A DNA stretch of 64,000 nt from Eledone cirrhosa (lineage: Eukaryota): positions 32,364,001-32,428,000 of the forward strand of contig OZ024742.1 in the NCBI GenBank assembly GCA_964016885.1. The letters are read 5' to 3'. Below, piece by piece: positions 11,379 to 35,200 of the stretch. Each line of letters starts with the position of its first letter. The stretch's first letter is position 1. The position numbers and the translations under genes were made by a program. The notes under the pieces were generated by a model that saw only the letters and a list, made by a program, of their open reading frames with translations, was not told the DNA's origin and did no database searches.

Positions 11379-11419
11379 AATATAACAGAGTTTTATAGCT
11401 TGCTTGAAGCATTGATGAA

Positions 11420-12148: not shown

Positions 12149-12210
12149 ATATGTATGTATATATATATATACACACATATATATAAACTAATATATACAC
12201 ACACACACAC

Positions 12211-13037: not shown

Positions 13038-13049
13038 TATATATATATC

Positions 13050-14088: not shown

Positions 14089-14090
<2 letters not shown>
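13050..14090 (-). mobile_element. RTE 3' fragment joined to a SINE-type tail
   Basis: ORFs 13256-13552 (RRLRWYGHVMHM..RGLGRPKMTW) and 13500-13733 (MLHGSETWAL); (CAT)n tail near 13050. Confidence 0.85.
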
Positions 14091-14129
<39 letters not shown>

Positions 14130-14131
<2 letters not shown>

Positions 14132-14546
14132 ATGTAAAGTTATGTTGGTGCCACAACATCCAGGCCGAAACATATGAGATCGTGTAGGTGTCATGACAAA
14201 AAAAACACACAGTCCACGCTGTAATGTGGCCGTGTAGGTAACACGGTAAAAACCTCCCAGTCCCACACTGTAAATGTGGTTGGTGTTAGGAAGGGCATCC
14301 AGCTGTAGAAAACCCGCCAGACAGTCCACGCTGTAATGTGGCCATGTAGGCAACATGGTAAAAACCTCCCAGCCCCACACTGTAAATGTGGTTGGTGTTA
14401 GGAAGGGCATCCAACTGTAGAAAACCCGCCAGACAGTCAGTCCTATGCGAGCAAGACAACCACTCTTGCCTCAAGTGGGAAAACTCCCGTCCAAACCCAT
14501 GCAAGTGTGGAACATGGACGTTAAACGATGATGATGATGATGATGA
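14130..14546 (+). mobile_element. SINE/RTE-UTR-derived element with internal ~114-bp tandem duplication
   Basis: ACAGTCCACGCTGTAATGTGGCC..GGTGTTAGGAAGGGCATCC..GAAAACCCGCCAG occurs twice; ends GGACGTTAAACGATGATGATG. Confidence 0.75.
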
Positions 14547-14565
14547 TAGTAATAATAATACATAT

Positions 14566-15118
14566 GAAGACTAAAATCCAAAGAGGGCTCGATAGGGATA
14601 AATATATATCAATTATATAAGAACCGTAGAGCAAATATTTATTAAAATAACAGATTAAAGTTTAAGCAAAGAATCGGCTGCTTTCACCCTTAATGGGATC
14701 TCCTGAAACTAAAAAAAAATCAATCTGTGAACGCAGAAGTAAATATTTCGAAAAACGTTGCAACCGAAGGAAGACAGAAAGACGATACTTTGGTTCGTGG
14801 AGACGTAGTTTTAGGATTTCTTCCAGCTTGGTATGGGTATGTTTTTTGTAGAAATATTCAGATGTTTCTGCATGATGAATATAAGTCAATAGAGTACTCA
14901 GTCAAGGGAGCCAAACAGTAATAATAATAAATTTGAAGACTAACATCCAAAGAGGGCTCAATGAGGATAAATATATATCAAATATATAAGAACCGTAGAG
15001 CAAATATTTATTAAAATAACAGATTAAAGTTTAAGCAAAGAATCGGCTGCTTTCACCCTTAATGGGATCTTCTGAAACTAAAAAAATATCAATCTGTGAA
15101 CGCAGAAGTAAATATTTC
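14566..15118. repeat. ~369-bp unit in partial tandem (1.5 copies); third copy at 49748-49923
   Basis: GAAGACTAAAATCCAAAGAGGGCTC...CTTTCACCCTTAATGGGATCT at about 14566, 14935 and 49748. Confidence 0.85.
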
Positions 15119-15380
15119 TAAGCCGACCTTTCCCAATTGCACCTCTCAAGGGCAATGACACACGACCATGACCTCTGGGGTCACACAGTAATACAGAAGA
15201 CCCAACTTTCCACAGGAACATATAGACAAAAAAAACAAAGGAAAACAAATATTATGTCCTATTAACTAATCCGACCTCCAAAATGCTTGCAATTGACTAT
15301 TTTTTTAGCATATTAACAACAAATATGATTTCCACTGCAATTAAAAATGACTAGCTTTGTAAATGATATTTCCACCCACA

Positions 15381-16854
15381 TGCTCTGGAGAGGAGCAATT
15401 ATAGGGGTATAAAACTGATAGATCAGGTTATGAAAGTGGCAAAAATAATATTAGCACAACTAATTAGAGAAAGGGTCAAGCTAGATGAGATGCAGTTTGG
15501 TTTTGTGCCTGGGAAGAGTACAACAGATGCCCTCTTCTTGGTGAGACAATTGCAAGAGAGGTTCTTAGAGAAAAATAAGCCACTATACTTAGCCTTTGTT
15601 GACCTAGAGAAGGCCTTTGATAGGGTACCCCGATCTGTCATCTGGTGGTCCCTAAGGAAACTAGGTGTTGAGGAATGGCTTGTGAGGACAGTGCAAACTT
15701 TGTACAGAGGTACTCTCAGTAAAGTCAGGGTAGGAATGGAGTTAAGTGAGGAATTCCAGATACAAGTAGGAGTACATCAGGGTTCGGTCCTCAGCCCGCT
15801 CTTGTTCATTATAGTCCTCCAAGCCATAACAGAGGAGTTTAAGACTGGCTGTCCATGGGAGCTTCTCTATGCTGACAATCTGGTTCTTATAGCAGAATCA
15901 GTAGAGGAGCTAGAGAATAAATTCTGGCTATGGAAACAACAGTTGGAAGCAAGAGGACTGAGAGTGAATCTAGCTAAGACAAAAGTGTTGATGAGTAGAA
16001 AAGAGGACAAAACCCTGATTCCGTCAGGGAAATGGCCATGTTCGATATGCAGAAAAGGAACTGGCATAAATTCTATAAAATGCACACAATGCAGATCCTG
16101 GGTCCACAAGAGATGTAGCGGGATAGCAGGCAAACTAACAGGTAGGGAGAAATATGTATGAAGTAGATGTACAGGGAAATTAGACAGTAGAAGTCGCATT
16201 GATAGACACATTTTTCAAATGCAGGAGGGCGCTATAGAAGTGGTGGATAGCTTCCGGTACCTAGGAGATCAGATTAGCATGGGAGGAGGGTGTTCCGAGG
16301 CCATAGTATCTAGAATAAGGACGGGTTGGAAGAAGTTTATGGAGCTGCTTCCTCTGTTGACGAAGAAGGGTTTCTCCCTGCGTACGAAAGGCCGGTTGTA
16401 TGATGCCTGTGTGAGGAGCGCGATGCTGCATGGTAGTGAGACATGGACAGCAACTGCAGAGAATATGCGACGGCTGGAGAGAAATGAGGCAAGCATACTC
16501 CGTTGGATGTGCAGTGTAAATGTGCGTGAACAACCAAGCATAAATGTGTTGAGAGAGAAACTGTCTGAGAGGGATAGAATGTAGTGTACGGGAGAGGAGA
16601 CTGAGGTGGTATGGATATGTGATGCGCATGGAGGATGACCGATGGGTGAAGAAGTGCCAGGAAATGCCAGTTGAAGGAAGACGTGGTAGAGGTAGACCAC
16701 GAAAAACATGGGTGGAGGTGGTGAGAACAGACCTCAGATCATTGAAGCTCACGGTGGACATTACGAAGGACCGTGACGAGTGGAGAGATGCTGTGCTGAA
16801 TAAGACCCGTCCCACCCTTGCAAGCAGGGAAAAGCGGACGTAAAATGATGATGA
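15381..16854 (+). mobile_element. 5'-truncated RTE LINE, close relative of the copy at 4125-7370
   Basis: ORFs 15430-16161, 16219-16584 and 16619-16843; YADD mutated to YADN; TGA at 16159-16161. Splits CCACCCACA|TCCTCCCTC of the satellite unit; (GAT)n tail. Confidence 0.93.
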
Positions 16855-19029
16855 TCCTCCCTCTTTTTTCTAAAAAGCTAGTCATTTTCATCAGGTTTCC
16901 ATGTCATAACCATTGATAATATGTGCATAAAATAGTAATTTGCAAGCACCATTTATGTCAAATTGGGTGGTAAGCACACACAAAAAAAAATGCCAAATGA
17001 AAATTTGTCACACCAAAATCAATATCTTGGAGTGATGTAGTATGGTGTGGTTTGGTGAAGTTTCTACAAAGATAGTCATTTTCGACAGGTTTCCATGTTA
17101 GATTGGGTAGTAAGCACACGGAAAAAAAATGTTTCACACCAAGATCAATAGCTTGATGTGATGTAGTATGGTGTAACTTGGTATGGTGTGGTTTGGTTTG
17201 GTTTAGTGAAGTTATGAAATGGAAACCAATTGTAAACGATAGATTCCCATGTCATATTCATTGATAATGTGTGGGAAAATAGTAATTTGCAAGCACCTTT
17301 GATGTTAGTTTGAGGTGGTAACCACAACAAAAAAAAAAAGCAGGTAGCAAATTTGTCACATTAATGTCCATATGATGTAAATAGTAGGAGTAGGTGTTCT
17401 GTAATAAATTTACCATATAGTGAAGTATGGTTATGGTGAAGTATATGGTGTGGATTGAGGTATATTAATGTGCTGTGGTGTGCTTTGTTATAAGTGAGGA
17501 TTTAAATTTCCACTTTGATTTATGTTAGAAAAAAAAATTTTCCTTCGTTTTTGCATGTGCTATCAACTTCCAAGAAGCTCGCAGTGGATTATGCTTTTAG
17601 CATATTAACAAAAAATATGACTTCCGATGCAATAAAAAATGGCTAGCTTTTTAAATGGTATTTCCACCCACATCCTCCCTCTTTTTTCTACAAAGCTAGT
17701 TATTTTCATCAGGTTTCCATGTCATAACCATTGATAATATGTGCATAAAATAGTAATTTGCAAGCACCTTTTATGTCAAATTAGGTGGTAAGCACAAAAA
17801 AAAAAAAAAAAAAATGCCACATGAAAATTTGTCACACCAAAATCAATATCTTGGAGTGATGTAGTATGGTGTGGTTTGGTGAAGTTTCTACAAAGATAGT
17901 CATTTTCGACAGGTTTCCATGTCATAATTATTGATAAGTGGAAAAAAAATAGTCAATTGGGAGCACCTTTAATGTCAGATTGGGTAGTAAGCACACAGAA
18001 AAAAAAAAAGGAAACGGGAAAAAAATGTTTCACACCAAGATCAATAGCTTGGTGCGATGTAGTATGGTGTAACTTGGTATGGTGTGGTTTGGTTTGGTTT
18101 GGTGAAGTTATGAAATGGAAACCAATTGTAAATGATATATTCCCCATGTCATATTCACCTTTGATGTTAGTTTGGGGTGGAAACCACAAAAAAAAAAAAG
18201 CAGGTAGCCAATTTGTCACATTAATGTCCATATATTGTAAATGGTAGGAGTAGGTGTTCCGTAATAAATTTACGATATATTGAAGTATGGTTATGGTGAA
18301 GTACATGGTGTGGATTGAGGTAGATTAATGTGCTGTGGTGTGCTTTGTTTTAAATTTGAGGATTTAAATTTGAGGATTTAAATTTTCACTTTGATTTATG
18401 TTAAAAAAAAAAATTTTCCTTCATTTTTGCATGTATTATCAACTTCCAAGAAGCTCGCAGTGGACTGTGCTTTAACAAAAAATATGACTTCCGCTGCAAT
18501 AAAAAATGACTAGCTTTGTAAATGGTATTTCCATCCACATCCTCCCTCTTTTTTCTACAAAGCTAGTCATTTTCGACAGTTTTCCATGTCATAATTATTG
18601 ATAATATGCGCGAAAAATAGTCAATTGCAGCACCTTTGATGTCAAATTGGGTGGTAAGGACACAAAAAAAAAAAAAAAGAAACAGGAAGAAAATTTTTCA
18701 CACTGAGATCAAAAGCATGGTCTGATGTTATGGTGTGGTTTGTTATGGTGTGGTTTGGATTGTTGTAGTTATGACATGGGAACCTATTGCAAATGATAGG
18801 TTTCCATGTTATATACATTGATAATGTGTAAAAAAATAGTCATTTGTGAGCACCTTTGATATCAGATTGGGTGGTAAGCACACACACACAGAAAAAAAAA
18901 AAACAGGAAGAAAAATGTTCTCACTGAGATTAATAGCATGGTGTGATGTAGTATGGTGTAGTTTGATGTAGTTTAATGTGGTATGGTTTTCCAACCTCCA
19001 ACATGCTCACAGCCGACTATGCTTTTACC

Positions 19030-19365
19030 ATCATCATCATCATTTTACGTCCACTTTTCCCTGCTTGCAAGGGTGGGACGGGAACTGATTCTGGTTTGAT
19101 TTCTACAGCTGGATGCCCTTCCTAACACCAACCTCATTTACAGTGAGTGCTGGGTGGTTTTTGCCATGGCACCTACACGACCACTTTGCAGTGGAATGAT
19201 AGGGACCGTAGTCCCTATCATCCCATTTCTACAGCTGAGTAAACTGGAGCAATGTGAATTAAAGTGTCTTGCTCAAGGAAACAACACACCACCTGGTCTG
19301 AGAATTGAACTCACAACCTTTCGATTGAAAGGCCAATGCTCTAACCACTAAGCCATGTGCCTCCA
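19030..19365 (-). mobile_element. Complete tRNA-CORE SINE with RTE tail
   Basis: Minus-strand TGGCTTAGTGG...GTTCAATTC head and CORE-like block. Tail matches the RTE end at 16806-16854 (one mismatch). TTACCAT on both flanks is a possible TSD. Confidence 0.88.
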
Positions 19366-19844
19366 TTACCATATTAACAACAAATATGACTTTCACTGCA
19401 ATCAAAAATGACAAGCTTTGTGAATGGTATTTCCACCCACTTTCCGCCCTCTTTTTTCTACAAAGCTAGTCATTTTCAAGAGGTTTCAAAGTCTTCATTG
19501 ATAATATGTGCAAAAAATAGTTAATTGCGAACACTTTTAAAAAAGCAGGAAGAAAATTTTTCACATTGAGTGCAATAGCATGGTGTGATGAAGTATGGTG
19601 TAGTTTGTTATGGTGTGGTTTGGTTTGGTGTAGTTTGGTATGGTTTAGTTTGGTGTAGTTATAACATGGAAACCTATCATAAATTTACCAAGGTATGGTA
19701 TAATCTGGTTTGGTATAGTGTAGGTTAGTGTGGGGTGTTATTGTGTTGCATCGTATAGCGTGATTCTCTTTAAATTAAAATCATTAAAATGTAATGCCTA
19801 TCTTCTATATCTTAAAGAGTGACCTTAAATGTGATTGTAAATGA

Positions 19845-22780
19845 CTTTTTTCTCTGGATTAATGTTAGATTTAGGGTTAGTGTTAAGGTAAGTTTTACTG
19901 TTAATGGTAAGTTTATTGTTAGTGACTGTGTTACTGTTAGCATTACTGTCACTGTTAGTGTTACTGTAACTGTTACTCTTACAGTTACTGTTTGCGTTAC
20001 TGTCTGCATCAGCGTTAGCATTTGCATAAGCGTCTATGTAAGCTTTTGTGTTAGTGTCTATGTAGACTGGTGTTAGCATCTGCGTTAGTGTTTGGATTAG
20101 CCTTAGTGTTTGCGTAAGTGTCAGCATCTATGTCAGCATTTGCGTCAGCGTCTGCATTGGTGATAGTGATTGTGTCAGCATTTCCCTTAGCGTCTGAGTC
20201 AACATTAGTGTTAGCATTAGTGTTTGTTTCAGTGCCTGCGTCTACGTCAGCTTCCGAGTCAGCATTATCATTAGCGTCCGTGTCAGCACTTGTGTCAGTG
20301 TCAGCATTTCCCTCAGTGTCAGCGTTTGCATCAGCGTGCACGTCAGCATTTGCATTAGTGTTTGAGTTAGTGTTAGCATCAGCGTTTGCATTTGTGTAGG
20401 GGTTAGCATTTGCGTCAGCATCTGCATCAGCATTCACATTAGCATTAGCGTTTGTGACAGCGTTTCCTTTAACGTCTTTGTCAGCATTTCCATTAGCGTC
20501 TATGTCAGTGTTTCTGTTAGCTTCTACGTCAGTGTTTCCGTTAGCGTCTGTGTCAGTGTTTCCGTTAGCTTCTACGTCAGCGTTTCCGACCGCGTCTGTG
20601 TCAGCGTCAGTATTTACATCTACATCAGCGTCAGCGTTTCAGTTAACGTTAGTGTTTATGTTAGCGTCTGTGTCAGCGTTTCCGTTAGCACTGGCGTTTC
20701 CATTAACCTTTCCTGTGGCGTCCGCATCATTGCAGCGTCTGCGTCAGTGTTTATATTAGCATCGGCGTCAGTGTTTACGTTAGCATCTGTGTTAACGTGT
20801 GTTAGCGTCTGTGTCAGCATTTTCATTAGTGTTTGCATCAGTGTGTCCTTTAGCTTCTACGTCAATGTTTACGTCTGCGTTAAGGTTCACATTAGCATCG
20901 CTGTCATCATTTGGGTCAGCATTTGCATTTGCTTTAACATCTGCATCAACATTTGCGTCTGTGTTTGCATTTGCTTTAGTGTTTGCATCAGCGTGAGCAT
21001 TTGTGTCAGTGTCTACGTCAGAGTTAGAGTCTGTGTAGCATTTACATCAGCGTGTGCGTCAGAGTCTTTGTCAGCATTCGCCTTTGCACCTGCATCAGTA
21101 TTCACGTTAGTGTTTGTGTCAGCATAAGTGATTGTGTCAACATTTGCGCTAGCGTTTGTGCCAGCATAACCATCTTCATCAGTGTCAGCTTTGGCATTAG
21201 TGTTTCCATTAGTGTTTGATTTTGTATTAGTGTTGGCATTTTTGTTAGTGTTAGTGTTCAGGTTAGTATTAGTGTTTGTGTTAGTGTTCAGGTTAATGTT
21301 GACTTAGTTTTCTGGTTAGTGTTAGTTTTCAGGTTAGGGCTCGTGTTACTTTTAGTGTTAGTGCTCAGGTTAGTGGTTTATGGTAATGTTAGTTTTAGTG
21401 GTACTGTTAGTGTTCAGGTTAATGTTTGTGTTAATGTCAGTTTTAGTGTTAGTGTTTACGGTAATGTTAGTGTTAGTGTTAGTGTTTTATTTTGTGTTAA
21501 TGTTTGTGTTAGTGTTTCCATTAGTGTTAGTGCTAGTCTTTGTTTTTCTGTTAATGTTAGTGTTTGTTTTAGTGTTGAGGTTAATGTTAGCTTAGTTTTC
21601 TGGTTAGTATCAGTTTTCGTGATAGTTTTAGTGTTAGTGTTTTTTTTAGTGTTAGTTTTCATGGTAGTGTTAGTGTTACTGTTAGTGCTCAGATCAGTGT
21701 TAGTGTTTGTGTTACTGTTTATGGTAGTGTTAGTTTCAGTGCTAGTGTTTAGGTTAATGTTAGTTTTAGTGTAAGTGTTCAGGTTAGTGTTAGTGTTCAA
21801 GTTATGTTAGTGTTAATGTTAGTTTTAGTTTTAAGGTTAGTGTTAGAGATTGTGTTAGTGTTTGTTTTTGTGTTAATATTTGTGTTAGTATCTCTGTTAG
21901 TGTTAGTTTTAGTGTAAGTGTTCAGGTTAGTGTTAGTGTTTAAGTTAATGTTAGTGTTAGTTTTAGTGTTATGGTTAGTGTTAGAGATTGTGTTAGTGTT
22001 AGTATTTGTTTTTGTGTTAATATTTGTGTTAGTATCTCTGTTAGCATTAGTGTTTGATGTTTCCATTAGTGTTAGTGATTGTGTTAGCGTTAGTCTTTGT
22101 TTTTGTGTTAATGTTAGCGTTAATGTTAGCATTAGTATTTCTGTTAGTGTTAGCATTAGTGTTTATGTTAGTGTTCAGGTTAATGTTAGCTTAGTTTTCA
22201 GGTTAGAGTTAGTGTTCAAGTTAATGTTAGTTTTAGTGTTAGTGTTGAGGTTAGTGTTAGCGATTGTGTTAGTGTTTGTTTTTGTGTTAATATTTGTGTT
22301 AGTATTTCTGTTAGCGTTAGTGTTTGTTTTAGTGTTGAAGTTAATGTTAGCTTAGTTTTCTGGTTAGTATCAGTTTTCAGATTAGTGTTTGTGTTAGAGT
22401 TACTTTTAGTGTTAGTGCTCAGGTCAGTGTTAGTGTTTATGGTAGTGTTAGTTTTAGTGCTAGTGTTCAGGCTAATGTTTGTGCTAATGTTAGTTTTAGT
22501 GTAAGTGTTCAGGTTAGTGTTAGTGTTTGTATTAGTGTTTATGGTAGTGTTAGTTTTAGTGCTGGTGTTCAGGTTAGTGTTAGTGTCAGTTTTAGTGTTA
22601 GTGTTCAGGTTAGTGTTTGTGTTAGTTTTCTATTTAATGTTAGTTTTCAGATTTTGTGTTTGTGTTAGTTTTCATGTTAGCGCTAAGTTCACTGTTAGAG
22701 CATGTGTGAGTGCAAGTGTTAGGGTAAGTGTTATTTTTAAAGTTCGGTTTTCTACTTTCCAGGAAAAAGTTGATCCTCTC
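19845..22780. repeat. ~2.9-kb degenerate hexamer array (TTAGTG / TCAGCR), G/T-rich on +, bounded by short inverted ends
   Basis: 6-bp periodicity throughout. Ends GACTTTTTTCTCTGGA (~19845) and TCCAGGAAAAAGTTGA (~22760). Confidence 0.85.
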
Positions 22781-22789
22781 TAACTTGAG

Positions 22790-23000
22790 TGGTGTGATAT
22801 AGTGTAGTAAAGTATAGTGTTTCATAGTCTTGTGTGGTGTTGTCTATTGTTGTATAGTGTAGTATGGTATATTGTTTCATAGCATGGTCTGATGTGAGGT
22901 CGTACAGTGTTTCATAGTGTGGTGTTGGATAATGTGGTATAGTATAATGTTTGTCAGTGTGGTGTGGTATGGTATAGGTTGATGTAGTGTGGCTTAGTTT
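22790..23000. repeat. Degenerate pentanucleotide tract (GTGTG/GTATA/GTGTA)
   Basis: 5-bp periodicity; same class as 29410-29485, 29770-30157 and 31240-31700. Confidence 0.75.
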
Positions 23001-23823
23001 GATTATAATAATACAAATAATAATAACAATAATAATAGTAATAATAATTGTTCTTCTTGTTCATTTTCTTTGTCTTCTTCTGTGCCTTTGACTTCTTCTG
23101 TGCCTTTATCTTCTACTCTGCCATCTAAATACCAAAAACAAAGAATGTAAAACATATATGTTGCCTATCTCTCAGACTTTACAAAGTGCTGAGGAGATAA
23201 AGTTAATTTAAAGAGCAGTGTGCTCATGCACTGTGATCCTATAATGTAGCTTATAAGCTATTTCATAACTAAAAAACAATGTCAAACATCAACAAAATAT
23301 ATACAAATATCTTTGAATGTTTAAGTTAAACCTAGATAGATCGTATCTAAAGGTCATTAGGTTAAGGCTGAACTAAGATCATATCTATAAATCATTAGGT
23401 TTAGACTGAACTGAGATCATACTTTCTTCTTCTTTTCGTCATCTTCGTTACCCGTGTCTTCTTTGTCTTTGTTGTCATTTTCATTTTAGTCGTCTGCTTC
23501 GTCGTCTTTTTCTTCTTTTCCATCTAAATATAAAAAAAAAATTGTAAACAAATATATATGTTTCTTTTATTTGCCACCAGGGCATCAAAAGTGGGACAAG
23601 TACAAAGGGGGGAGTTTACGCAAAAAGGCGTCCTCAATAAGGAGGAGGCAATAACAATGTATAAAAATAAAATAAAATATAACAAAAAATAAAAGTTATA
23701 ACAAGATCCTCAATAGAGAGGAGGCGCCTTGGGGGGTCGCACACACCCCCGAAAAAAGTGTGCAAACCCTTTTCCTCAGGAGCACAGAGAGGGGGTGCTC
23801 CCTCGTTCCTTCCTCCTTTCCAC

Positions 23824-26800
23824 CTACAGGCTTATGTAAAGAGAAGGCCCATTCACACGGGCCATTCTCGCCACTTTCACCCACCTTTCATAAAAACGAC
23901 TGGGGTGGAGCACCTCTCTCTCCATCCTGATCCTTCTTCCGAAATGATATCGGAAGAAACGGACCAGTTGTTGGCCAGAGAGAAAGGTGCCTGACCTCAG
24001 TCCTTTCAGACGCATCCACCATACAACTTCTTTCACCATGGCTATTACGCACAGAAACACCGCCTCTCCTTCATCTTTGAAGGGGGGAGGCGGCTTGATC
24101 ATTACAATAGACTCGGTGGTCAACCGGATCGGTCCCACCCTTGACAGCAGTTGTTCGACATAGCCCCACAGATCGGCTACGCCCGAGCAGTGTACCAATG
24201 CGTGTGCAACGGTTTCCTCGTCGCACACGCATCTGGGACAGATCTTTTTGGCGGGGTCCCTACCCGGGCGCCCGTGTCTGTAGAGTTTTTCTCGGACGGG
24301 TAGAGCCCCTCGGTAGCACTGCCAGGCCAGGGACTTCTGGAAGTTGTCCATAGGTCCCGGGCTGAATGTCCTACCGAACAGGCTGGCCAGTTCGTCCTCC
24401 TCCATGTCTAGGGCTTCTCCGAGGGCATCGTCGCACCTGCTGCGTACCAGCCCTCTATAGAATGGTGCGGTGGAGTCTCCACTGACAACCGGATCCGCCT
24501 GCCAGAGGGCGGTGAGCGCCTGGGCACACTCAGTGTGCCAGGCGCCCAGTTTTCTCGGTCTTTGCTTGACCCAGGATTGCAGCTCGGTGAGTGAGACGAG
24601 TCTGGGAAAGGTTCGTCTCACAAATGAGGCCCACACCGGTTGACCGGTGAGGAATACGTAGAGGTGCCGTAGCCTTAATGCGTGTTTACGCATCATTAGC
24701 AACGGCATCCCCAGCCCTCCTTTCAAAGGGTGTTGACAGCAGATGGATCTCCTCACCATAGGCGCCCGCCTCTTCCAAAGGAATTGGAAGAGCGCGCGCT
24801 CCATCTTGGTGAGGGTTTCCCTTGGGCAGGGCACTACGGTCAGGCGGTAGTAGATGACGGACGCTATATAGGTGTTCGCCACCTCCGCCCGACCTTTCAG
24901 GGATAGTTTGCAACTGGCCCACTTCTGGGTCAGTGCAAACACCCTGTTCGTAACCTCCGCCCAGTTCTTCTCCACCTGGAGGTCCGGTCCGAACCAGACC
25001 CCGAGCAACTTCACCGGGCCCTCCGTCCAGCGTCCGACGACGCCATCGGAGGGCATCGGTCTGCCCCTCCACGTGCCGAGTTGCAAACCGATCGACTTGT
25101 CCCGGTTCAGCTTAGCCCCTGTGAACCTTTCGTACTCCTCCAGTAAGGTGCCGACCGCCTCGATTTCGGAGGCCGTCGACACCATTACTGTCACGTCATC
25201 GGCGTAGGCCGACACCGCTTTCCGCAATCCTGGTTCCAAAGGGATGCCCTGCAACAACTCCAACTTCCGCAGTAGTGGCTCGAGAGTCAACACATACAGA
25301 AGGGAGGAGAGAGGGCACCCTTGTTGGATGGACCGCGCGATTTTGAACGGCTCCGAGAGGTAGCCGTTCACCTTGACCCTAGAGCAGATGCGGCTGCTGT
25401 GCATAGCAGTGATCCAGCCCCTGAAAACGGGTCCGAAGCCTGCCGCCGCTAGCACCGCATCCAGGTAACCATGGTCGACCCTATCGAACGCCTTGGATTG
25501 ATCCAAGTTGATCAGAGCCCCACCAAAGCCGGGTTCATTCCCAACCCTCTCTATGATGTATCGCATGAGGTGGAGGTTGTCATGGATGGAACTGGACGGG
25601 ATAGCGCATGTCTGCGCATCTCCCACCAGGTTGCCCACGACAAGCGCCAACCTCTTTGCTAGCACCTTGGCCAAAATCTGTAACTCTGTATTTAGCAGAG
25701 TTATGGGCCTGAAGTTACTTATTTCGTCCCCCTTGTTCTCGTCCTTCCTCACTAGCTTGACTACGCCCTTGGTCACAGTACAGGGAATTCTCCCGTTCTG
25801 TTGCCAGTTGCAGTAGACCGCCTCGAGGAGATCAGGGAACATGTCTGGCATAGCTAGATATAATTCGTAAGGAAGACCATCGAGACCTGGGGATTTGCGT
25901 TTGCCGCATTGGCCCAGCACGTCCTCTATTTCAGCGGTCGAAATCGGCTCCTCGCAGGACTTCGCCTCCCTGTCCGAGAGACGCGGCAGGCCGTCGAGGT
26001 ATGGACCGAAGTCCACATTCCCAACCGGCTCCCCGCCCCTCCCGAACAGTCGGGCAAAGTGCCTTTGAAAGGCCTCACACATCTGCTTAGGCTCAAGAAT
26101 CGCCCGTCCATCCAGGTCTCGCAAAGACCAGATAGTGGATTTAGTTCCACTGTTGGCCTCTGTCACGCGGGCCCAGCTAACAGCTTTGGTCCCCTCGTTC
26201 CCTAGAGCACGTATTTTACTTCGGACAACACAGCCTTCGTGCTTCGCGTCGAAAAACTGGCTCAAAGCCGTTCTCGACGCTAGCACTCTGGCCACGTCGC
26301 TTCTAATTGCCTCTGCTACTCTATCTATTAGCTCCCTTTCCTTCCTATTCCTATCCGCAGCTAGAACCTTACTAAATTCTATCGAGACTACTCTAATCTC
26401 TCTCTTTAGAGATACCCACCACCTGCTGTTGGCCATCGCTCCAGTCAATCGTTCCTTAACTAACGTACTAATCCGATCCCTGTAGGCTCTACTTGCCGGC
26501 AAGGACAAGTTGAGCTTCCAGTAACCGGGGCCCTGTCTATGCATTCTATCAAGGTTGACCATGCAGGTCACCAACTTGTGGTCTGAATAGCCAACCATGA
26601 GCATTTCTGGACAACTTAAAAAGTCCCTGTCCTTATTTCTAACTAAAAATCTATCTAGATACGACCTAGATGATCCGCTGCGATTTGACCAAGACCAGGT
26701 AGGCACCGTCGGAAAATCTAGTCGAAATCTATCGGCCAGGTCAAATCGGCCGAGTAACCTCTTGAGGCTGTTGCACCCCTCTCTATCGGGACATGCCCCT

Positions 26801-27282
26801 GCATAGTCCCAACGTGCATCCAGGATACCATTCCAATCCCCCACTAAAAGCAGGGAACGGGACGTCCCTAGAAAAGACTCCAGACGCTGGAAAAAGTCGG
26901 GCCGCTCTGTCCCAAAAGGGGCATATGCGGCTACCAGCCTAAAGGCTCTACCTTCACCACTGCCAAGGTCCAGCACCACCAGTCGACCCCCTGGGTCCAA
27001 GTGAACTATCTGTGTTGCAAGGCCCATATGTTTTTGCAGCAGAACGACAACCCTACCCCCACCTCCGGGCTGACAGAGAGATGCGTGCATCTCAAAGTCG
27101 TCAAAGGTGGGGGCTAGCTGCCGCATGCTGCTGATCCGAGCCTCGCAGATAACCATCACATTTATAGATTGTGACCTGAGGTCATTTAGAAGCATTGCTT
27201 GCTTCCAAGACGAGCCCAGGCCACGCGCATTTAGACACCCTACTCTTAGCACAGCCATGTTGGTGTTAAGGAGAAAAGGCAC
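23824..27282 (-). CDS. Tx1-type ORF2: APE endonuclease + reverse transcriptase + C-terminal CCHC finger (uninterrupted, 1152 aa)
   Basis: LNARGL, VGDWN, SYLDRF, SDHKLV, GPGYWKLN, KSPGLDGLP, FRPITLLN, DQSKAFDRV, QGCPLS, AYADDV, GGLGMP, CPRC..ETVAHALVHC. Confidence 0.95.
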   Translation of the reverse strand: MPFLLNTNMAVLRVGCLNARGLGSSWKQAMLLNDLRSQSINVMVICEARISSMRQLAPTFDDFEMHASLCQPGGGGRVVVLLQKHMGLATQIVHLDPGGRLVVLDLGSGEGRAFRLVAAYAPFGTERPDFFQRLESFLGTSRSLLLVGDWNGILDARWDYAGACPDREGCNSLKRLLGRFDLADRFRLDFPTVPTWSWSNRSGSSRSYLDRFLVRNKDRDFLSCPEMLMVGYSDHKLVTCMVNLDRMHRQGPGYWKLNLSLPASRAYRDRISTLVKERLTGAMANSRWWVSLKREIRVVSIEFSKVLAADRNRKERELIDRVAEAIRSDVARVLASRTALSQFFDAKHEGCVVRSKIRALGNEGTKAVSWARVTEANSGTKSTIWSLRDLDGRAILEPKQMCEAFQRHFARLFGRGGEPVGNVDFGPYLDGLPRLSDREAKSCEEPISTAEIEDVLGQCGKRKSPGLDGLPYELYLAMPDMFPDLLEAVYCNWQQNGRIPCTVTKGVVKLVRKDENKGDEISNFRPITLLNTELQILAKVLAKRLALVVGNLVGDAQTCAIPSSSIHDNLHLMRYIIERVGNEPGFGGALINLDQSKAFDRVDHGYLDAVLAAAGFGPVFRGWITAMHSSRICSRVKVNGYLSEPFKIARSIQQGCPLSSLLYVLTLEPLLRKLELLQGIPLEPGLRKAVSAYADDVTVMVSTASEIEAVGTLLEEYERFTGAKLNRDKSIGLQLGTWRGRPMPSDGVVGRWTEGPVKLLGVWFGPDLQVEKNWAEVTNRVFALTQKWASCKLSLKGRAEVANTYIASVIYYRLTVVPCPRETLTKMERALFQFLWKRRAPMVRRSICCQHPLKGGLGMPLLMMRKHALRLRHLYVFLTGQPVWASFVRRTFPRLVSLTELQSWVKQRPRKLGAWHTECAQALTALWQADPVVSGDSTAPFYRGLVRSRCDDALGEALDMEEDELASLFGRTFSPGPMDNFQKSLAWQCYRGALPVREKLYRHGRPGRDPAKKICPRCVCDEETVAHALVHCSGVADLWGYVEQLLSRVGPIRLTTESIVMIKPPPPFKDEGEAVFLCVIAMVKEVVWWMRLKGLRSGTFLSGQQLVRFFRYHFGRRIRMEREVLHPSRFYERWVKVARMARVNGPSLYISL

Positions 27283-29144
27283 TTACCTCTCTGCGTCCCG
27301 GGAAACGGGCCGCTCAATTTCCATGCTGGTTGGGGATGGGTTGTTGGGTGGGGTGGTGGTTTGTGGAAGTGAAGGGGCATCGGTGTGTTGTGGGGTTGGG
27401 GTGTTTGTGGTTGAGTGGGTGTCTGGGGGGTGGGAGTGGGGGTGGGGGGTTTAGGAGGACGCGGTTGATTGGTTTGGCGCAGGGGGGGGCCCACGTCCTC
27501 CGTGAAATTTATTTTCAGTGTTTTGTACAAGTTCATTGGGACTTTTATCATTTTTAAATGAGGTAGTCCCACAGCAGTTATAAAGTTTGGCCCTTCAGTT
27601 TGGACCGAAGGGTTTGCTAAAATTGTTTTCCGTAATTCTTTGTTGTCTGTGTTCATGTATGTATATTGTAAGGTCTTTTTTTGTGTAGCAGTTAGTGTTG
27701 TGTGACGGGGAGGGGTGTTTGTGTGTAGTTTGTGTTCTCTTGGGGGGGGGGGGGGTTAAAGTTAACATGTGTGTCTGTGGTGCGTCTCCTCTTCTTTCTT
27801 TTTACTTGTTGGAAGGGATCTTTTTCGTCTTGCGACGAAAGGGGTTCGTCTTCCTTGTTGGGTGGGAGGGGTATGTTTTCTGGTAGTGTTTGCGGTGTGT
27901 GTGTTTTTGTATTTGTTTTGGGTGGGGAGGGATTGGGTGGGACGGTATTCTGTGTTATTTTTTCACGTGTTTGTTGTTGTTGTTGTGGTGGTGGTGGTGG
28001 TGGTGGTGGGGTTGTTGGTTTTTGTTGTTGTTGTTGTTGTGGTTGTTTTTGTTGTTGTTGTTGGGGTGGTGTTGGTGTTGGTAGCAGTGTTTTTTTCTGT
28101 GTGAGCTGGAGACAGGCAGCCCTCAGGTGACCTCTATTGCCACAGAGGTAACAGGAGGGACGCCTACCCTCCACAATAATGTTGAGGTGGGTACGGTCAT
28201 CCAGCATGACGTGCTCAGGGATTTGGGCGATGCGTTCTGGCCTTATTTGGGTCAGAACTTCTATGCTCGTTCCACTGAACGCGTCGCCGGATGCCTTCCC
28301 TATTGAAATGAGGTTGTCCTCGTCTAAATTGAGGAAGCCGGTTAGTAACCACCAGTAGTTTATGTTTGGGGTGATGGTGGTTATCCATATCCTCTGGGTT
28401 TTTTTACCCATGTAGGTGGGGAAGAAGGTGTAGTGTGTGGACCGAATTGGCGACACAGAGTATTTTTTCGCCGCCAATTCGTCTTTCATCAATATGGATA
28501 AACTCCCATAGAGTTTATCCTTTTGTATAAAAGTGATGTCTCTCATCGCGTCTTTCAAGACTAACTGAATTTCAGCTTGAGATGGTTGCGCTGGTTTTTT
28601 TGTTTTATTTAAAATTGTTCGGAATACGACAGTTCGTAATTCCGTCTGTTTTTTTAGTTCTGGAGGTGAATGTATAGAAAACGAACCGTTTTCGCCAAAA
28701 GATACATATTTCTTGGCTTTTTCCAGCATTTCTTTTGCTTTTGAAATATCTTCAAGCACATACGCGACTGATAATTTAGCCGTTTGTGCAAAAGATATTT
28801 TGTTTTCGCTTTGGATTTTAGTATTGTTTTGTTTCTCGTCGTTTGAGTTGTTTTCATCTTTGTTGTTGTTGTTGTCTTTCTCGTTTGGTGTGTGGATACT
28901 TGTGACGTTTGTGTTGTTGTTGTTTTTGTTGTCTTTATTATTGCTGTTGTTGTCGTTGTTGTTGTTGTTGTTTTCAAATTCTTGTGTAGTTGTGGCTACA
29001 TCTAGTGGTCGGTCAACAGGTGAAGACAATTCTTCCTCTCTCTGACCTCTGCCATTGGCATCTGCTGCTGTGACAGTGGCAGGGGAAGCTGTGAGTATGA
29101 CTTCCCCTTTCCTTCTTTGATTGATGGTGAAGATGCTTCAGCCA
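27246..29144 (-). CDS. Tx1-type ORF1 (gag-like, CCHC zinc knuckle, Asn/Gln/Pro-rich), split by apparent frameshifts
   Basis: Core ORF 27692-29029 has CYLCGNRGHLRAAC. It probably continues in 27246-27656 after a G homopolymer (~27742-27755). Candidate ATG at 29144 is in another frame. Confidence 0.75.
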
Positions 29145-29769
29145 TTTTTCTCAAAATAGGGTTTTTCGAAGTTTTTCGAAAGATAAAATGTTCACAATAT
29201 TATTTCGCCCAAAGGCGCAGAATATTTTGAGAGACCGACCAGATCAAGATTTGACCTGGCAGTCCCTCTACAAAATGGTACAAAAATGAAAGTTTACAGT
29301 TTACAATTTCCGTATGAATTTAAACAAACAAATATATAGCTGATCTCTCAGACTTTCATGAAACACCGAGGAGATACAGTTAATATAACGAATGGGGAGC
29401 TCATATATATATATGGTATAGCATGGTGTTATGTGGTCTGGTGTGGTACAACATGGTGTGATGTGGCGTGGTATGATATGGTGAGGCGGGGGTAGGGGAC
29501 ACAACGTTAGATTAATGTTAACAATACACATGTGATGAGAAGAGGGAAACAGTGTTTAACTAATTTTAACATTACATGTAGCATCCATCTACAGGTGATT
29601 AAGTTAAGACTGAGGTGTAATCATATGAAAAGGTCAATTTAAAACTACACTGAGATTCTGCTTAAAATGATGGTCAATGAAGTGTTTACTTACTCAGATC
29701 CTTTGAAATAACTTTCTTTCTCTTACTGTAACTGGACATACCTACGAAATAGAAAACAGTCGAATAGAC

Positions 29770-30157
29770 AGTGGTGTGGTGTGGTGTGGTGTAGTGTGGT
29801 GTAGTGTAGTGGAGTGTGGTTTAGTGTAGTGGACAGTGGTATGGTGTAGTGTAGTGGAGTGTGGTTTAGTGTAGTGGACAGTGGTGTGGTGTAGTGGAGT
29901 GTGGTGGAGTGGAGTGTGGTTCAATGTAGGGTGGGGGATATGGTGTAGTGAAGTGTGGTGGGATGTAGTGTGGTAGCATGTGGTGTGATGGCATGTGATG
30001 TGATGTGGCATGGTGAAATGTGATGTGGTGTGGCATGGTGAAATGAGATGAGGCGAGACGAGACGAGATAAGATGAGATGTGATGTGATGTGGTGTGGTG
30101 TGATGTGGTGAGATGTGATGTGGTGTGGTCTGATGTGGTGTGCTGTGATGTGATGTG
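29770..30157. repeat. Pentanucleotide tract (GTGTG/GTGTA/GATGT)
   Basis: Direct observation. Confidence 0.85.
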
Positions 30158-31235
30158 AAATTTTTTTATCCTATTTTTTATGAGCTATCAACTAATCCAA
30201 TCTCCAAGGTGCTTGAAACTGACTTTTTCCTCCCCAGGAAAACGGCGGGGTGAGGTGGTTCCCCCTTCACCCGGATAACCCCTGCTTACTCAGAATTATC
30301 TCTTTGATTCTATTTCCATGCGTTATCAGTAAATATGACTTCCAAATCAGTCAAAAACAATTAGCTTTGGAGAAAGAGGAGTGGGAGAGGGGAAGAGTTT
30401 TGCAGATCTACACCCCACTCACATGTCGTGGGACTTAATCATTTTCGGTATATTTCCTGTGCTATTTCCTGTGCTATTTCCTGTGCTATTAATTAATCTG
30501 ACCTCCTAGATGCTTCCAACCAACTTATTTCCCTGGGTTAGGTTTAGGGTTGGGGTAATGTTTAGGGTTTAGTTTTAGGGTTGGGGTAATGTTTAGGGTC
30601 TAGTTTTAGGGTTGGGGTAAAGTTTAGGGTTTAGTTTTATGTTTGGGGTAAAGTTTAGGGTCTAGTTTTAGGGTTGGGGTAAAGTTTAGGGTTTAGTTTT
30701 AGGTTTGGGGTAACGTTTAGGGTTTAGTTTTAGGTTTGGGGTAAAGTTTAGGGTTTAGTTTTATGGTTGGGGTATAGTTTAGGGTTTAGTTTAAGGGTTG
30801 GGGTAATGTTTATATTTAGATTTAGCTTGGTTTGGTTTAGATTTAGAGTTTAGGGTTGGGGCTAGATTTAAATTTATGTTTAATTTAGTTTTGGTTTCCA
30901 AATCCCAGGAAAAAATTGATTCAGAGCAATTAAAAGGTCAGATTAGTTGATAGCACTCAAAAGGAGACCGAAGAAAAATCATTAGGGTATACATCTACAA
31001 AACGGCAATGGTTTTTCCACCTGCTTTACCCCTCCTTTTTCCTAGAACAACTAATCATTTCCAACTGGTTTGGAGGTCATATTCGTTGATAACATACGAA
31101 AAATCTTAGAGAAAACTCTGGGGTTAAATGAGAGAAGTGCATCCACCTAAGTTTTCCATGAAGAGAGTGTCAATAACAAACATCTTGGAGTTCAAATTAG
31201 TTGATAACACATGAAAAAATATGATGAAAAAATTT
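30158..31235. mobile_element. ~1.1-kb fold-back element: ~350-bp imperfect inverted arms around a telomere-like 31-bp minisatellite
   Basis: Paired arm blocks: GCTATCAACTAAT/ATTAGTTGATAAC, GTTATCAGTAAATATGACTTCCAAA/TTTGGAGGTCATATTCGTTGATAAC, GTTTTGCAGATCTACACCC/GGGTATACATCTACAAAAC, GTGCTATTAATTAATCTGACCT/AGGTCAGATTAGTTGATAGCAC. Confidence 0.75.
30535..30870 (+). repeat. 31-bp G-rich minisatellite GGGTTGGGGTAAAGTTTAGGGTTTAGTTTTA (G-quadruplex-capable)
   Basis: About 9 tandem copies containing TTTAGGG and runs of G3-G4. Confidence 0.9.
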
Positions 31236-31239
31236 TGCA

Positions 31240-31700
31240 TGTTGTGTGGCGTGGAGTAGTGTGGTGTGATGTAGTGAGGTGTGTTTTTATGTGGTGTGAT
31301 GTAGTGAGGTGTGGTGTGTTGTGGTGTTATGTGGTGTGGCGTAGTGTGGTGTGTTTTTATGTGGAGTAGTGTGGTGTGTTGTAGTGAGGAGTGGTGTGTT
31401 GTGTTGTAGTGAGGAGTGGTGTGTTGTGTTGTGGTGTTATGTGGTGTAGAGTAGTGAGGTGTGTTCTTATGTGGAGTAGTGTGGTGTGTTCTTATGTGGA
31501 TGGATGTAGTGAGGAGTGGTGTGTTGTGTTGTTATGTGGTGTGGAGTAGTGTGGTGTGTTTTTATGTGGAGTAGTGTGGTGTGTTCTTATGTGGTGTGAT
31601 GTAGTGCGGTGTGTTGTGTTGTGGTGTGGGGTAGTGTGGTGTGTTGTAGTGAGGAGTAGGGTGGTGTGCTGTAGTGAGGAGTGGTGTGTTGTGCAGTGAG
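31240..31700. repeat. Pentanucleotide tract (GTGTG/GTAGT/GTGTT)
   Basis: Direct observation. Confidence 0.85.
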
Positions 31701-32029
31701 GTTCTTCATCTTTATCTTTCTCTTCTTCATCTTTGTATTCATCTTCTTTGTTTTGTCTTCCATCTAAACAAAAAAATATATATAAAACATATGTAGCCAA
31801 TCTCTCAGACTTTTACAAAGCTCCAGGGAGATAAATTTAATATAAGTGGTGTGTTCCGGAACAGAGATACTACAAAATAGCTTAAAAGCTATATATATAT
31901 ATACATATTGTTATACTTTGGGAGGGTCATGTTGCCAATAAGAAACACACGCACCAGTTGCTTTCACTTCAATTTATTATAATAAATTTCTGGTTGGTTG
32001 GTTCCACAACCAGATAGTTGTTTATATAT

Positions 32030-32074
32030 AGTCATAGTTCTTTCGTCACACACTCTGTGACCTCTTCAGTGACT
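32030..32074 (-). ncRNA. Minimal type I hammerhead ribozyme motif (PLE pLTR)
   Basis: AGTCA-CTGAAGA-G-GTCACA(GAGTG)TGTGAC-GAAA-G(AA)C-TA-TGACT: 5-bp stem I, 6-bp stem II, vestigial stem III. Confidence 0.75.
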
Positions 32075-32274
32075 GGGGATTCCTTTCTTTGTTTCTGTGC
32101 CTCTCCTTTGTTCTGTCCTACGCCATTTTGTTTCTGTGTGTGTGTTGTGTGCTCAGTCTGCGCATGCGCCACATCCGGGTGTCTGTGTGTGTTTATGTTC
32201 ATTTATTTATTTGTTTATTTACATGTTACTGGTTGGTTGTTTGTTCTATGTGTGTGTGTGTTTTCATTTTGTCC

Positions 32275-35200
32275 TTAATTGTAAGTTGTGATGTTGCTGT
32301 TCCACTTATATTTTCTATTTAATTTTGGTTGTAATTCTTTTATGTTTATTGCCTCTGTAATTTGTCTAAACATTGCGTCTTTTCTGTGTGTAGATTCTAT
32401 TTTTATTTCTATGTTCTCTAATTTACCCTTGTGTTCTATTTTAGCATGTTGGTAGAGTACAGATGATTCTTTACTATCTTGAAGGTCTCGCCAATGTTCA
32501 TTTATCCGTTCCCCTACACTACGAGCTGTCTCACCTATGTACACTATATTTTTGTCTCTACATTGTCCTTCAGTACATCTTATGCTATACACTACATTTC
32601 TAGTTTTACAGTTAATATGGGGGCTTATTTTACAGGTTATACATTTCTTATCTATACATGAGGGTCTTTGAAAAGGGTATTCTTGCTAATAAGTGTTTTT
32701 ACGGAGGTACCTGGTCTTTCTACTATCTTAATATTGAGTTTATGTTTATTTAGGGCCCTTCTAATTTTGTAAGCTAATTCACCTCTATGGGTTGTATCGA
32801 TGAACATTACACTCTGGTATTTATTGCTATCATACCATGAGTTTATTCTATTAGCCTTGTTCCTAGTTCTTTCTATTCTATTCCAAAATTTGCTCCTATA
32901 CAAGAGGCAGGTCCCATTTATGTCATTATTTACCATTTTTTCCCATTTGGTTCTGGCTCCTCTATACACTCTGATTTTATCTCTCTGATTGTAGCCAGAG
33001 AACTGCATACGGTGGATGAAGTGTTGAATGTGTCTCTCTAGTTCTTCGGGGTTGCACATGCGGGACACATTCCTCATCACCCGTACCAAATCCGCAATCA
33101 GTATGTTGATTATGGTATGGTCCGAAACGGCCGAGTTTCGGTGGATCAGATGTTTGGAAGTCATGGGTTTGGCATAATGGGAATGGAGGATTTGTTTTTT
33201 GTTGTTAATGGTATCTAACCAGAGCTCTGTGTCTAGTACAGGTAATCGATGGTTGGGGTGTTTACTTGGGTAGTCTATAGTAACTCTAATGCTCTGGTGG
33301 ATGGATTTTGCTATTTGCTGGATGCTTTCCATTGTGTTTTTCTCTAGTTCCTGACTGTTCTCTAGTGGGGGTGTCTTAACTACGATGTTTATATCATCAA
33401 CGTAGCGGGAGTACATTATCAGGGTTAAGGGGTCTTCTAATTGTTCTTTAAGTTTAAGTTTAAGTCTACTGTCTCACCATACCATGAATAAGTTAGCTAT
33501 GTCGCCTGCAATGCTAACACCAATGGCTGCTCCTTCCTCTTGGGCATATGTTTTTCCATTAAATTTGAACATATGTTCCTTAAGGGTTAGTTTTATGCTG
33601 GCCCCTACCGCATGTGCAATCATTTTCTTCAGTTCATCGTGGTTTTCGGGTGTCCGTATGGCTCTGGTCCACCCGTTCCATCTATCTGTGTGGGTTTTCT
33701 TGGCCATTGAGGTAATGGTAGGTGGTCTGCCTCTTGCTGGTCTTGTAGGGCACAGGTTGCTAAGGTCATATGTGTCTAGGTAATTATTACTATAGGTAAG
33801 CTTAAATAGGAGTCCCAGCTCACTGGTATCAATCCCACGGAACTCAACCTTGCTCTCACTGATCATTTCTACGCATTTCTCCACAGCAAAATCCACGTCA
33901 ATAGATGGATACAGGGACACAACATCCATACTACCTATTATGCAGTTTCTTAGGTCCCTAGATCGGTTACCCTCGCCGATTCTGCTGAGGAGGTCCTCCG
34001 TGCTGTCACATACATCTGTGGACATTTCAATGATGGGGCGTATGATCAGGGAGAGGAAGTAGGACAGTCTGTAGTTACTAGCAATGTTAGCTCCACAGAC
34101 TGGCCGTGTTGGTGGTCCCGCGACAGGGTCACTGCCCGTTTTATGGTCTTTTCGAAGCCCATACAACGCCGGCATGTCATTGTTCCAGGCCTGGAAGTTG
34201 TTGGCAGTCCTTTTGTTGGGCTGCATTATATTCGTCCACATCACCATATGGGCATTGTGTTAGTGATGTGGGGTTGCATTGCCTGGATGTAGTTTGGCAG
34301 GCTGTCAACCGACATTCTGCCAGACTTGTCTGTTGGAAAGCATGCTATCTCTCCATTACGCGAGCGCTGCATGAGCTTACGCAAGCCATTTGCAGATTTT
34401 TCTCCCAGTAGCTGGGCCTCCATTCTATTATGCTTCTTGCTATACTGTTCTATAATATTTCTAAGTTCGGATCTAGGTATACTAAATTGTGCTTCTGTTT
34501 GTTCATCGACCTGCGACGGCAATTGTGTGCGTTTGTTAAATGGTAAAGTCGTGGCGTGGACTCGTCGCAGGTCGAACGATTTATCGGAGGGATTATAAAA
34601 CGTAGAGTTCCAGGCTGCTGCTTTATGTGTACTAGTGCTATTGTTATTGTTAGTTGTGTTGTTTCTATTTCTATTTCCACCAACAGCCTCATGGTTGTTT
34701 CTATGTCTCTCATAATTACTCCTGTCTCTTTCCACTGGCTCATTGTTGTTATCTAGCCTATTTTGTGTGTCTGTGTGTTCGTCTTGGTTATTCTCTTTGT
34801 CCTTAGTCTCCTTTCTCTTTTTAATCCTATTACTTTCCCTTATTTCTGTGATTTCTGTGCTACTGTCATTACTTGTTTTCTGTGTCTGTGTATTTGTTAA
34901 GATTGTGGTGGTGAGAGGCATTGAATGTGTGTGTGTTATTGTTGTTGATGTGTGCTGTTGTTGATGTGTGTTGTTGTTGTCTCCGTGTGTGTTATTGTTG
35001 TTGTGTGTGTTGTTATTGTTGTTTGTGTCTGCGTGTCTGTTGTTGTTGTTTCTGGGCATGTTGTTATTGTTGTTGTTGTTGGTGTGTGTGTTGTTGTTAT
35101 TGTTGTTTGTGTCTGTGTGTCTGTTGTTGTTGGGATGTGTGTTGTATATGTGTGTGCGTATATTGTTGCTTTTGTTTTTGTTTTTGTTTTTGAGGCTCCA

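What the first reader, a model, noticed from the sequence alone, without database searches (positions are those of the whole stretch)
15255..31900. Unnamed ~16-kb modular repeat system: fold-back arms, telomere-like cores, pentamer spacers and exon-like modules
Seen: with the RTE, SINE and Tx1 insertions removed, the region is built from one recurring toolkit. (i) Inverted arms related to GTGCTATCAACTAATC..GACCTCC..TGCTT (15255, 17557, 18433, 30181, 30483, with mates). (ii) G/T-rich TTAGGG-like cores. (iii) Pentamer tracts, all G/T-rich on +. (iv) A CCATCTAAA..TCTCTCAGACTT..GGAGATA module at ~23120, 23520/29340 and 31760. No transposase is visible. Inference: a large non-autonomous DNA-transposon/fold-back family or a subtelomere-like block of undescribed architecture.
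Basis: partly seen in the sequence, partly recalled or inferred. Interest (0 to 1): 0.72.

Follow-up and report, generated by a model that had tools for sequence, protein, structure and literature searches.

The report
Nested repeat cargo of giant Merlin
This modular block is passenger DNA: old fold-back mini-transposons and simple repeats strung into an older dispersed repeat, one version of which sits inside a family of very large (typically about 29 kb) jumping elements at dozens of places in this genome, likely carried there by a small Merlin transposase that sister copies encode.

Summary
The modules are real, but 15255-31900 is not a self-contained element; it has three layers. (1) The arms and telomere-like cores come from an old stand-alone fold-back MITE family (GG-starting ends; 4 of 7 both-end copies show an 8-bp duplication at 7/8 or better). 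(2) These MITEs, microsatellites and a hairpin module were strung into an older compound repeat, 3.5 and 11.7 kb in two fully measured copies and at about 19 loci; its mover is unresolved. (3) One version is cargo of a young giant Merlin transposon family. It starts 1094 bp left of the window, median length is about 29 kb, 79 and 76 exact end-junction hits were found, and 28 of 33 end pairs share an 8-bp target-site duplication at 7/8 or better. Two loci carry open 300-302 aa ISXO2-type transposase frames with the same ends. The window copy lacks its right end and carries its own RTE, Tx1 and Penelope insertions. A subtelomeric block and a live gene are not supported. This scan has reported the giant Merlin family before on other DNA of this genome; the dissection of its cargo is what this report adds.

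The parts
1..42330 (+). Part of one giant Merlin-ended element that lies in the window. Its left terminal inverted repeat is 1094 bp left of position 1 and begins a 389-bp complete MITE. The normal right end is missing in this copy.
14546..15254 (+). Shared cargo just left of the block: a duplicated ~205-bp common repeat and a SINE piece. The block's start differs here from the start seen in older-family copies.
15255..19850 (+). Tandem array of units: an old fold-back MITE followed by a pentamer tract, higher-order period about 870 bp; the number of units differs between sister copies
15380..16855 (+). 5'-truncated RTE LINE, not in the sister copies read; 94% like the copy at 4139-5580
19031..19362 (-). 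tRNA-headed SINE shared with sister giant copies
19850..22750 (+). TGTTAG/GTCAGC hexamer tract in the position of the MITE's TTAGGG-like core; 2.9-6.0 kb in the four full tracts read, no continuous frame
23054..23261 (+). Module 1: (TTC)n-rich stretch, CCATCTAAA, 33-nt hairpin, short palindrome TAGCTTATAAGCTA
23420..29404 (+). Module 2, split by the Tx1 insertion
23559..29325 (-). Tx1/L1-type LINE with open ORF1 (481 aa stop to stop) and ORF2 (1152 aa), 13-bp target duplication; not in the sister copies read
29771..30157 (+). Pentamer tract
30158..31235 (+). Nested fold-back MITE: outer arms, inner arms 30483-30532 / 30908-30956, TTAGGG-rich 31-bp-period core 30535-30900
31239..31700 (+). Pentamer tract
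31702..31904 (+). Module 3 and the fixed right end of the older compound family: TAGCTTAAAAGCTA then (TA)n
31905..36770 (.). Penelope-like element with inverted arms (97.7%) and a GIY-YIG remnant, inserted in the TA run; not in the sister copies read
42331..42445 (+). Inward-facing copy of the family's right-type terminus, where homology with sister copies stops

Best explanation
The block is non-coding cargo inside one right-truncated copy of a giant (median about 29 kb) non-autonomous Merlin DNA transposon family, likely cut and pasted as one piece by a ~300-aa ISXO2-type transposase that shares its terminal repeats. Shown: common ends, 8-bp target duplications, same-ended transposase copies, dispersal, and older relatives of the cargo outside any such ends. 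Inferred order of events: (1) an old Merlin-like fold-back MITE with a TTAGGG-like core spread; (2) MITE-plus-pentamer units were tandemly duplicated and joined to microsatellites and a hairpin module, giving an older compound repeat that dispersed by a route not resolved here (my odds: rolling-circle about 0.4, passive duplication or hitch-hiking about 0.35, RNA-mediated about 0.25); (3) two Merlin ends came to flank one shortened version plus other transposon debris, and the transposase moved the whole; (4) arrays grew and shrank by slippage or unequal exchange, new ends were sometimes added outside, and this copy took RTE, Tx1 and Penelope insertions and lost its right end.
For: Four of 5 other loci read at 50-80 kb share a sharp left boundary at -1094; the fifth begins with a transposase-bearing end. 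End pairs tested for an 8-bp duplication: 33, of which 23 exact, 5 at 7/8, 1 at 6/8 and 4 none; 2 further pairs could not be tested. Exact 27-mer junction hits: 79 left and 76 right, controls 0. 52 of 86 left ends have a same-strand right end within 100 kb, 3.9-62 kb, median 29 kb. Left ends: 40 of 40 scored are 98-100% identical. The transposase is PF12762 (E 1e-15 to 2e-19); open 300- and 302-aa frames lie at L137 and L138 with the same terminal repeat; 4 of 5 transposase-bearing giants have exact duplications. 36 of 40 best hits to an inner arm (window included) lie in the expected orientation near a giant end or transposase. Eight older relatives read at 20-50 kb keep the module order with no such terminal repeat. 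Nine giant cargo rows form one side of a branch against 11 older rows (90/86). Stand-alone fold-backs carry the same arms.
Against: The window copy itself cannot be closed with a duplication: no right end lies in the window or in the next 60 kb. 34 of 86 left ends were unpaired by exact-match lists and 4 of 33 pairs show no duplication. Some copies are duplicates of one insertion (C211 x4, C5 x4; C1:30.5 Mb and C2:128.9 Mb share flanks), so independent events are fewer than loci. Two of the exact duplications are AT-repeat and weak. Tree support for the single cargo clade is moderate, on 207 columns, unrooted, and the bootstrap had not settled. Transposase activity is not shown. No empty-site comparison with another individual was possible.
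Confidence: 0.88

Rival explanations
1. The block is itself the mobile unit in this window, moved by its fold-back arms or its own ends.
For: An older family with this architecture and a fixed right end exists outside Merlin ends. The arms derive from a real MITE family.
Against: Young copies share about 16 kb of cargo left of the block and about 11 kb right of it. The block's left start is cut off relative to older copies. No inverted match over 9 bp joins the two ends in 2 of 2 complete older copies.
Confidence: 0.05
2. The block is a captured or decayed gene on the minus strand, with acidic exons (modules) and a long Thr-Asn/Asp-Ala repeat exon (hexamer tract).
For: Modules read TTTAG|ATGG on minus and give D/E/K-rich peptides. 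One older copy (O) has a clean 90-bp AG..GT open stretch. Position 2 of the hexamer is 91-94% A while positions 1 and 4 vary, a codon-like bias, though the phase was chosen by that pattern.
Against: In 17 module-2 copies with both sites the length mod 3 is 0, 1 or 2, the giant copies carry a stop, and several older copies shift frame. Modules 1 and 3 run into microsatellites with no donor seen. All 4 full tracts have 55-225 stops per frame. The tract sits between MITE core flanks.
Confidence: 0.04
3. Subtelomeric block, segmental duplication without transposase, or misassembly.
For: TTAGGG-like cores. A few older-family copies lie within 1-4 Mb of a contig end (C4:377.76 Mb, C2:412.37 Mb; with contig lengths). 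Some giants were copied in tandem segmental duplications (C5, C211).
Against: Interstitial position and 17 contigs. Unique 8-bp duplications at exact terminal repeats. Short-read contigs of 4 runs (one study, possibly the assembly's own) cover 26-28 of 30 bins of 22740-23560.
Confidence: 0.03

Closest known systems
Merlin superfamily (IS1016/IS1595-related), as summarised in PMC8101967 (passages and a supplement search read; Feschotte 2004 not read)
   Same: 5'-GG terminal inverted repeats, 8-bp duplication, ~300-aa DDE_Tnp_IS1595 transposase, internal tandem repeats. Merlin is abundant in Octopus bimaculoides per that paper.
   Different: Size: median 29 kb and up to about 62 kb, against Repbase Merlin-2_DR, whose listed coordinates reach 11,976 (the longest I saw, not a survey). 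The cargo is a mosaic of other transposons, and new outer ends are added.
Multicopy Pack-TIRs of animals (PMC8277862, passages) and Pack-MULE / enlarged 16-20 kb CACTA elements (PMC6431247, passages)
   Same: Terminal-repeat elements that carry foreign DNA and amplify it by further transposition.
   Different: No host gene was found in the one copy scanned (27 frames; only RT and GIY-YIG remnants). Merlin is not mentioned in the main text of either paper (0 occurrences).
Maize macrotransposons / alternative transposition (PMC4270019, search listing and abstract start only); bacterial composite transposons (recalled)
   Same: Ends of two separate elements act together on the DNA between them; the left end here is a complete 389-bp MITE.
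   Different: Here the composite became a high-copy family rather than a one-off rearrangement.
HINE / DINE-1 non-autonomous Helentrons with central tandem repeats (PMC4067079, PMC7492417; passages) - for the older compound family
   Same: Non-coding, tetranucleotide microsatellite near one end, internal tandem arrays, palindrome at the other end, no duplication seen.
   Different: No 11-15 bp subterminal inverted repeat found (best 8-9 bp); flanked by TA runs rather than TT; several kb long and built from MITEs of another superfamily.

Membership tests
Merlin (giant family) | Terminal inverted repeats of 24-462 bp starting 5'-GG | tested here: met
   GGCACTACAACGCTATTAGCTGTCAGTC at both ends, 28 bp
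Merlin (giant family) | 8- or 9-bp target-site duplication | tested here: met
   23 exact and 5 at 7/8 of 33 pairs; not testable for the window copy
Merlin (giant family) | DDE_Tnp_IS1595 transposase in an element with the same ends | tested here: met
   PF12762 hits; same terminal repeat beside 27 of 30 transposase loci
Merlin (giant family) | Transposase activity on these ends | not testable with these tools
   needs an excision or binding assay
Merlin-type MITE (the fold-back arms) | GG-starting terminal repeats | tested here: met
   GGTAAATTTATAGAA / GGTATTATTATAGAA; a left end of this type was found in 13 of 19 loci screened, some with mutated first bases
Merlin-type MITE (the fold-back arms) | 8-bp duplication | tested here: inconclusive
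   7 both-end copies: 2 exact, 2 at 7/8, 1 alike but for a 1-base indel, 1 at 5/8, 1 none; fits an old family, small sample
Merlin-type MITE (the fold-back arms) | Autonomous partner with the same ends | tested here: inconclusive
   none among 20 loci of more distant Merlin transposases picked from 150 listed
HINE/Helentron (older compound family) | 11-15 bp subterminal inverted repeats | tested here: not met
   best 9 and 8 bp with one mismatch in 2 complete copies; the left end is ragged, so the true terminus may be missed
HINE/Helentron (older compound family) | 3' palindrome near the end | tested here: met
   TAGCTTAAAAGCTA at the fixed end; folding z only -1.8
HINE/Helentron (older compound family) | T-rich (TT) target, no duplication | tested here: inconclusive
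   TA runs on both sides hide the target; no empty site examined
HINE/Helentron (older compound family) | Rep/Helicase partner sharing the ends | tested here: inconclusive
   end-pattern searches gave 13 and 4 hits; the 13 continue into the same non-coding block, 2 of the 4 are known older copies and 2 were not read for a partner; no Rep/Hel search was run
Protein-coding gene | Conserved exon phase and open frame across copies | tested here: not met

The most novel reading that the evidence does not exclude
The older compound family is an undescribed kind of non-autonomous element: several kb of another superfamily's MITEs and a ladder of 2- to 6-base microsatellites, with no terminal repeats, one fixed hairpin end at TA runs and internal copies of that end, spread by one-ended rolling-circle or RNA-mediated copying. 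It was then re-amplified as cargo of a giant Merlin, so the same DNA rode three different transposition systems in turn.
Probability: 0.3. Interest if true: 0.7.

Novelty: new variant of a known kind. Interest (0 to 1): 0.5.

Why it matters
A ~300-aa transposase appears to have moved 20-60 kb units dozens of times in an animal genome, more than twice the longest Merlin I saw listed and against the expected fall of efficiency with size (PMC6431247, passage). The paired copies alone total about 1.5 Mb. The cargo shows how MITEs, interstitial telomere-like repeats and satellites can be assembled and spread by successive carriers, and repeat annotation would likely split such an element into many unrelated families. 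The same-ended open transposase frames make the size limit directly testable.

Tried and rejected
RNA evidence: no RNA holder listed. The 4 runs laid are contigs of unrecorded kind from one study; the two skips seen do not end in GT..AG, which says nothing on expression. Rfam on 14000-33000: only a sub-threshold tRNA hit in the SINE and two chance hits, so no hammerhead in the module. Module hairpin folding is weak (z -2.7, -0.9, +0.45) and covariation was not tested. Partner search for the old MITE among 20 Merlin loci: none. End-pattern searches for a partner of the older family: nothing identified. Window right end sought in 60 kb downstream: none. The giant carrying the open 302-aa frame (C3:15.88-15.91 Mb) also lacks its right terminal repeat. 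Searches read the wrong locus (L050) and are not used. The formal one-clade test did not run. Protein database searches of the low-complexity peptides were not run, as hits would be uninformative. Paper searches listed no paper describing giant Merlin elements or this compound family in cephalopods; the library lacks most subscription journals and Repbase/Dfam were not searchable. The O. vulgaris repeat library (PMC13282606; first third of the text read, supplements not opened) may hold pieces of these families. A sequence look-up of the older family in earlier scan notes returned nothing.
Full report
Observation. The window is G000:C3:32364001-32428000 in a 3.0-Gb genome; an octopod is likely from the repeats and earlier notes, but I did not test this. 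Reading 14000-34000, tandem-repeat and self-comparison runs confirm the four kinds of module at the quoted places. Caveats: the 17557 and 18433 arms are partial, and the big tract 19850-22750 is TGTTAG/GTCAGC-based with only 3 TTAGGG.

The real unit is larger. A search with one 870-bp unit found near-identical arrays at many places (256 candidates, 21 scored). Five of these read over 50-80 kb match the window collinearly far outside the block: four from exactly 1094 bp left of the window, with matches reaching about 42330 in copies A to C and 39319 in E; the fifth (D) starts with a transposase-bearing end. The boundary is the repeat GGCACTACAACGCTATTAGCTGTCAGTC, which opens a complete 389-bp MITE. 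Copies A, B, C and E close 21.5-31.3 kb later with the inverted repeat and an 8-bp duplication (3 exact, 1 at 7/8). Exact 27-mer junction patterns give 79 left and 76 right ends with 0 control hits. Adding 7 left and 17 right ends, 52 of 86 left ends pair within 100 kb (3.9-62 kb, median 29 kb, about 1.5 Mb). Of 26 further pairs examined, 24 were testable: 16 exact, 4 at 7/8, 1 at 6/8, 3 none. In two of these the duplication flanks an extra outer end, so the element sometimes grows by recruiting new ends. Some loci are segmental duplicates of one insertion.

The mover. Copy D carries an ISXO2-like (DDE_Tnp_IS1595) remnant. A genome search found 154 matches among 150 candidates scored; 27 of the 30 best loci have the same terminal repeat nearby. 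L137 and L138 hold open 300- and 302-aa frames, and L138 lies just inside the left end of a giant. Four of 5 transposase-bearing giants tested have exact duplications, 17-26 kb long. These features match the Merlin definition in PMC8101967 (passages). Activity is inferred, not shown. Left ends are 98-100% identical (40 of 40 scored), so the spread is recent.

The window copy. It carries an RTE (15380-16855), a Tx1 with open ORFs (23559-29325) and a Penelope-like element (31905-36770) that the sister copies read lack. At 42331 an inward-facing right-type terminus appears, homology stops, and no right end exists in the window or the next 60 kb. An intramolecular or alternative transposition event is my inference.

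What the block is made of. 36 of 40 best hits to an inner arm sit in giants. An exact 21-mer of the arm has 164 hits. Of the first 30, 24 carry the whole block context, one of them an older-family copy. Of 20 more that I picked for lying away from known ends, 6 were again the giant block, 2 were weak partial matches and 12 were stand-alone fold-backs or fragments. Stand-alone copies (0.3-0.7 kb where both ends were found) are nested fold-backs with ends GGTAAATTTATAGAA or GGTATTATTATAGAA, often with a TAACCC core; 4 of 7 both-end copies show an 8-bp duplication at 7/8 or better. They are probably a second, old Merlin-type MITE family; no partner was found among 20 other transposase loci. Pentamer tracts in the arrays typically begin right after this MITE's right end (seen). 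The hexamer tract's two flanks align with the flanks of the MITE core, so it is an expanded, mutated core; it has no continuous frame in any of 4 full copies.

An older compound family. Diverged relatives with the same order of modules and no giant-type terminal repeat were read at 8 loci over 20-50 kb. A segment that they have and the giant cargo lacks matches 19 places over most of its length at 78-100%, query included, of 40 candidates scored; several are duplicates of one another. They end at TAGCTTAAAAGCTA followed by TA repeats in the complete copies, start raggedly in GATA/GGTA microsatellite, and are often head-to-tail inside; two fully measured copies are 3.5 and 11.7 kb. On a 207-column segment the 9 giant rows are 97-100% like the window (D 93%, with a deletion) and form one side of a branch (90/86) against 11 older rows at 71-93%, which fits a single capture but is not a rooted test. 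It resembles HINE/DINE-1 elements (PMC4067079, PMC7492417; passages) in its microsatellite, arrays and end palindrome but fails the subterminal-repeat test, so I do not file it there; its mover is open.

Exon-like modules. They read like acceptor sites with acidic peptides, and one older copy has a clean 90-bp AG..GT stretch, but lengths, frames and stops vary across 17 copies. I read them as (TTC)n-derived sequence beside a repeated hairpin/terminus; an ancestral exon is not excluded. There was no RNA to test this. No host gene was found in 27 frames of copy A.

Comparison and verdict. The giant family is a Merlin by all testable criteria and a size and cargo variant of it; the longest Merlin I saw listed reaches about 12 kb. 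The scan has already reported this family several times in this genome; I reached the reading before that look-up. New here is the three-layer origin of the cargo. Supplements of the O. vulgaris repeat paper and Repbase/Dfam, which I did not see, may already hold the MITE or parts of the older family. Confidence 0.88 in the main reading; interest 0.5.

Noticed in passing
G000:C1:30.48-30.50 Mb (L073/L096) and C2:128.90-128.93 Mb: Two giant copies on different contigs share both flanks, so one insertion was copied again with its surroundings.
   Followed up: no
G000:C211 (four copies about 160 kb apart) and C5:12.46-13.10 Mb (four copies about 175-215 kb apart): Giants, and on C5 an older-family copy, sit in tandem segmental duplications.
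   Followed up: no
   Followed up: no
L138:2680-3050: An unrelated fold-back family with a TAACCC core flanks the giant, so telomere-like cores recur in several small element families here.
   Followed up: no
window 15226-15254: A ~25-bp micro-inversion relative to sister copies just before the first arm.
   Followed up: no
window 23824-29137 (minus): Tx1-type LINE with two uninterrupted ORFs, possibly still competent; a 91% relative lies 5 kb from older-family copy F.
   Followed up: partly
window 55543-56016 (minus): Coiled-coil coding stretch, probably a host exon, right of the element; only a weak Pfam GAS hit (E 6e-4).
   Followed up: partly
window 47876-48427: Tc1/mariner-type DDE_3 remnant (E 2e-4).
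   Followed up: partly
G000:C17:28.3-29.0 Mb, C3:370.9 Mb, C2:329.45 Mb: A ~58/116-bp tandem repeat related to the middle of the older family forms separate arrays.
   Followed up: no
contigs C1-C4: Four contigs of 379-443 Mb hold 56 of 86 left ends and about 54% of the assembly; other contigs seen are 137 Mb or less.
   Followed up: no
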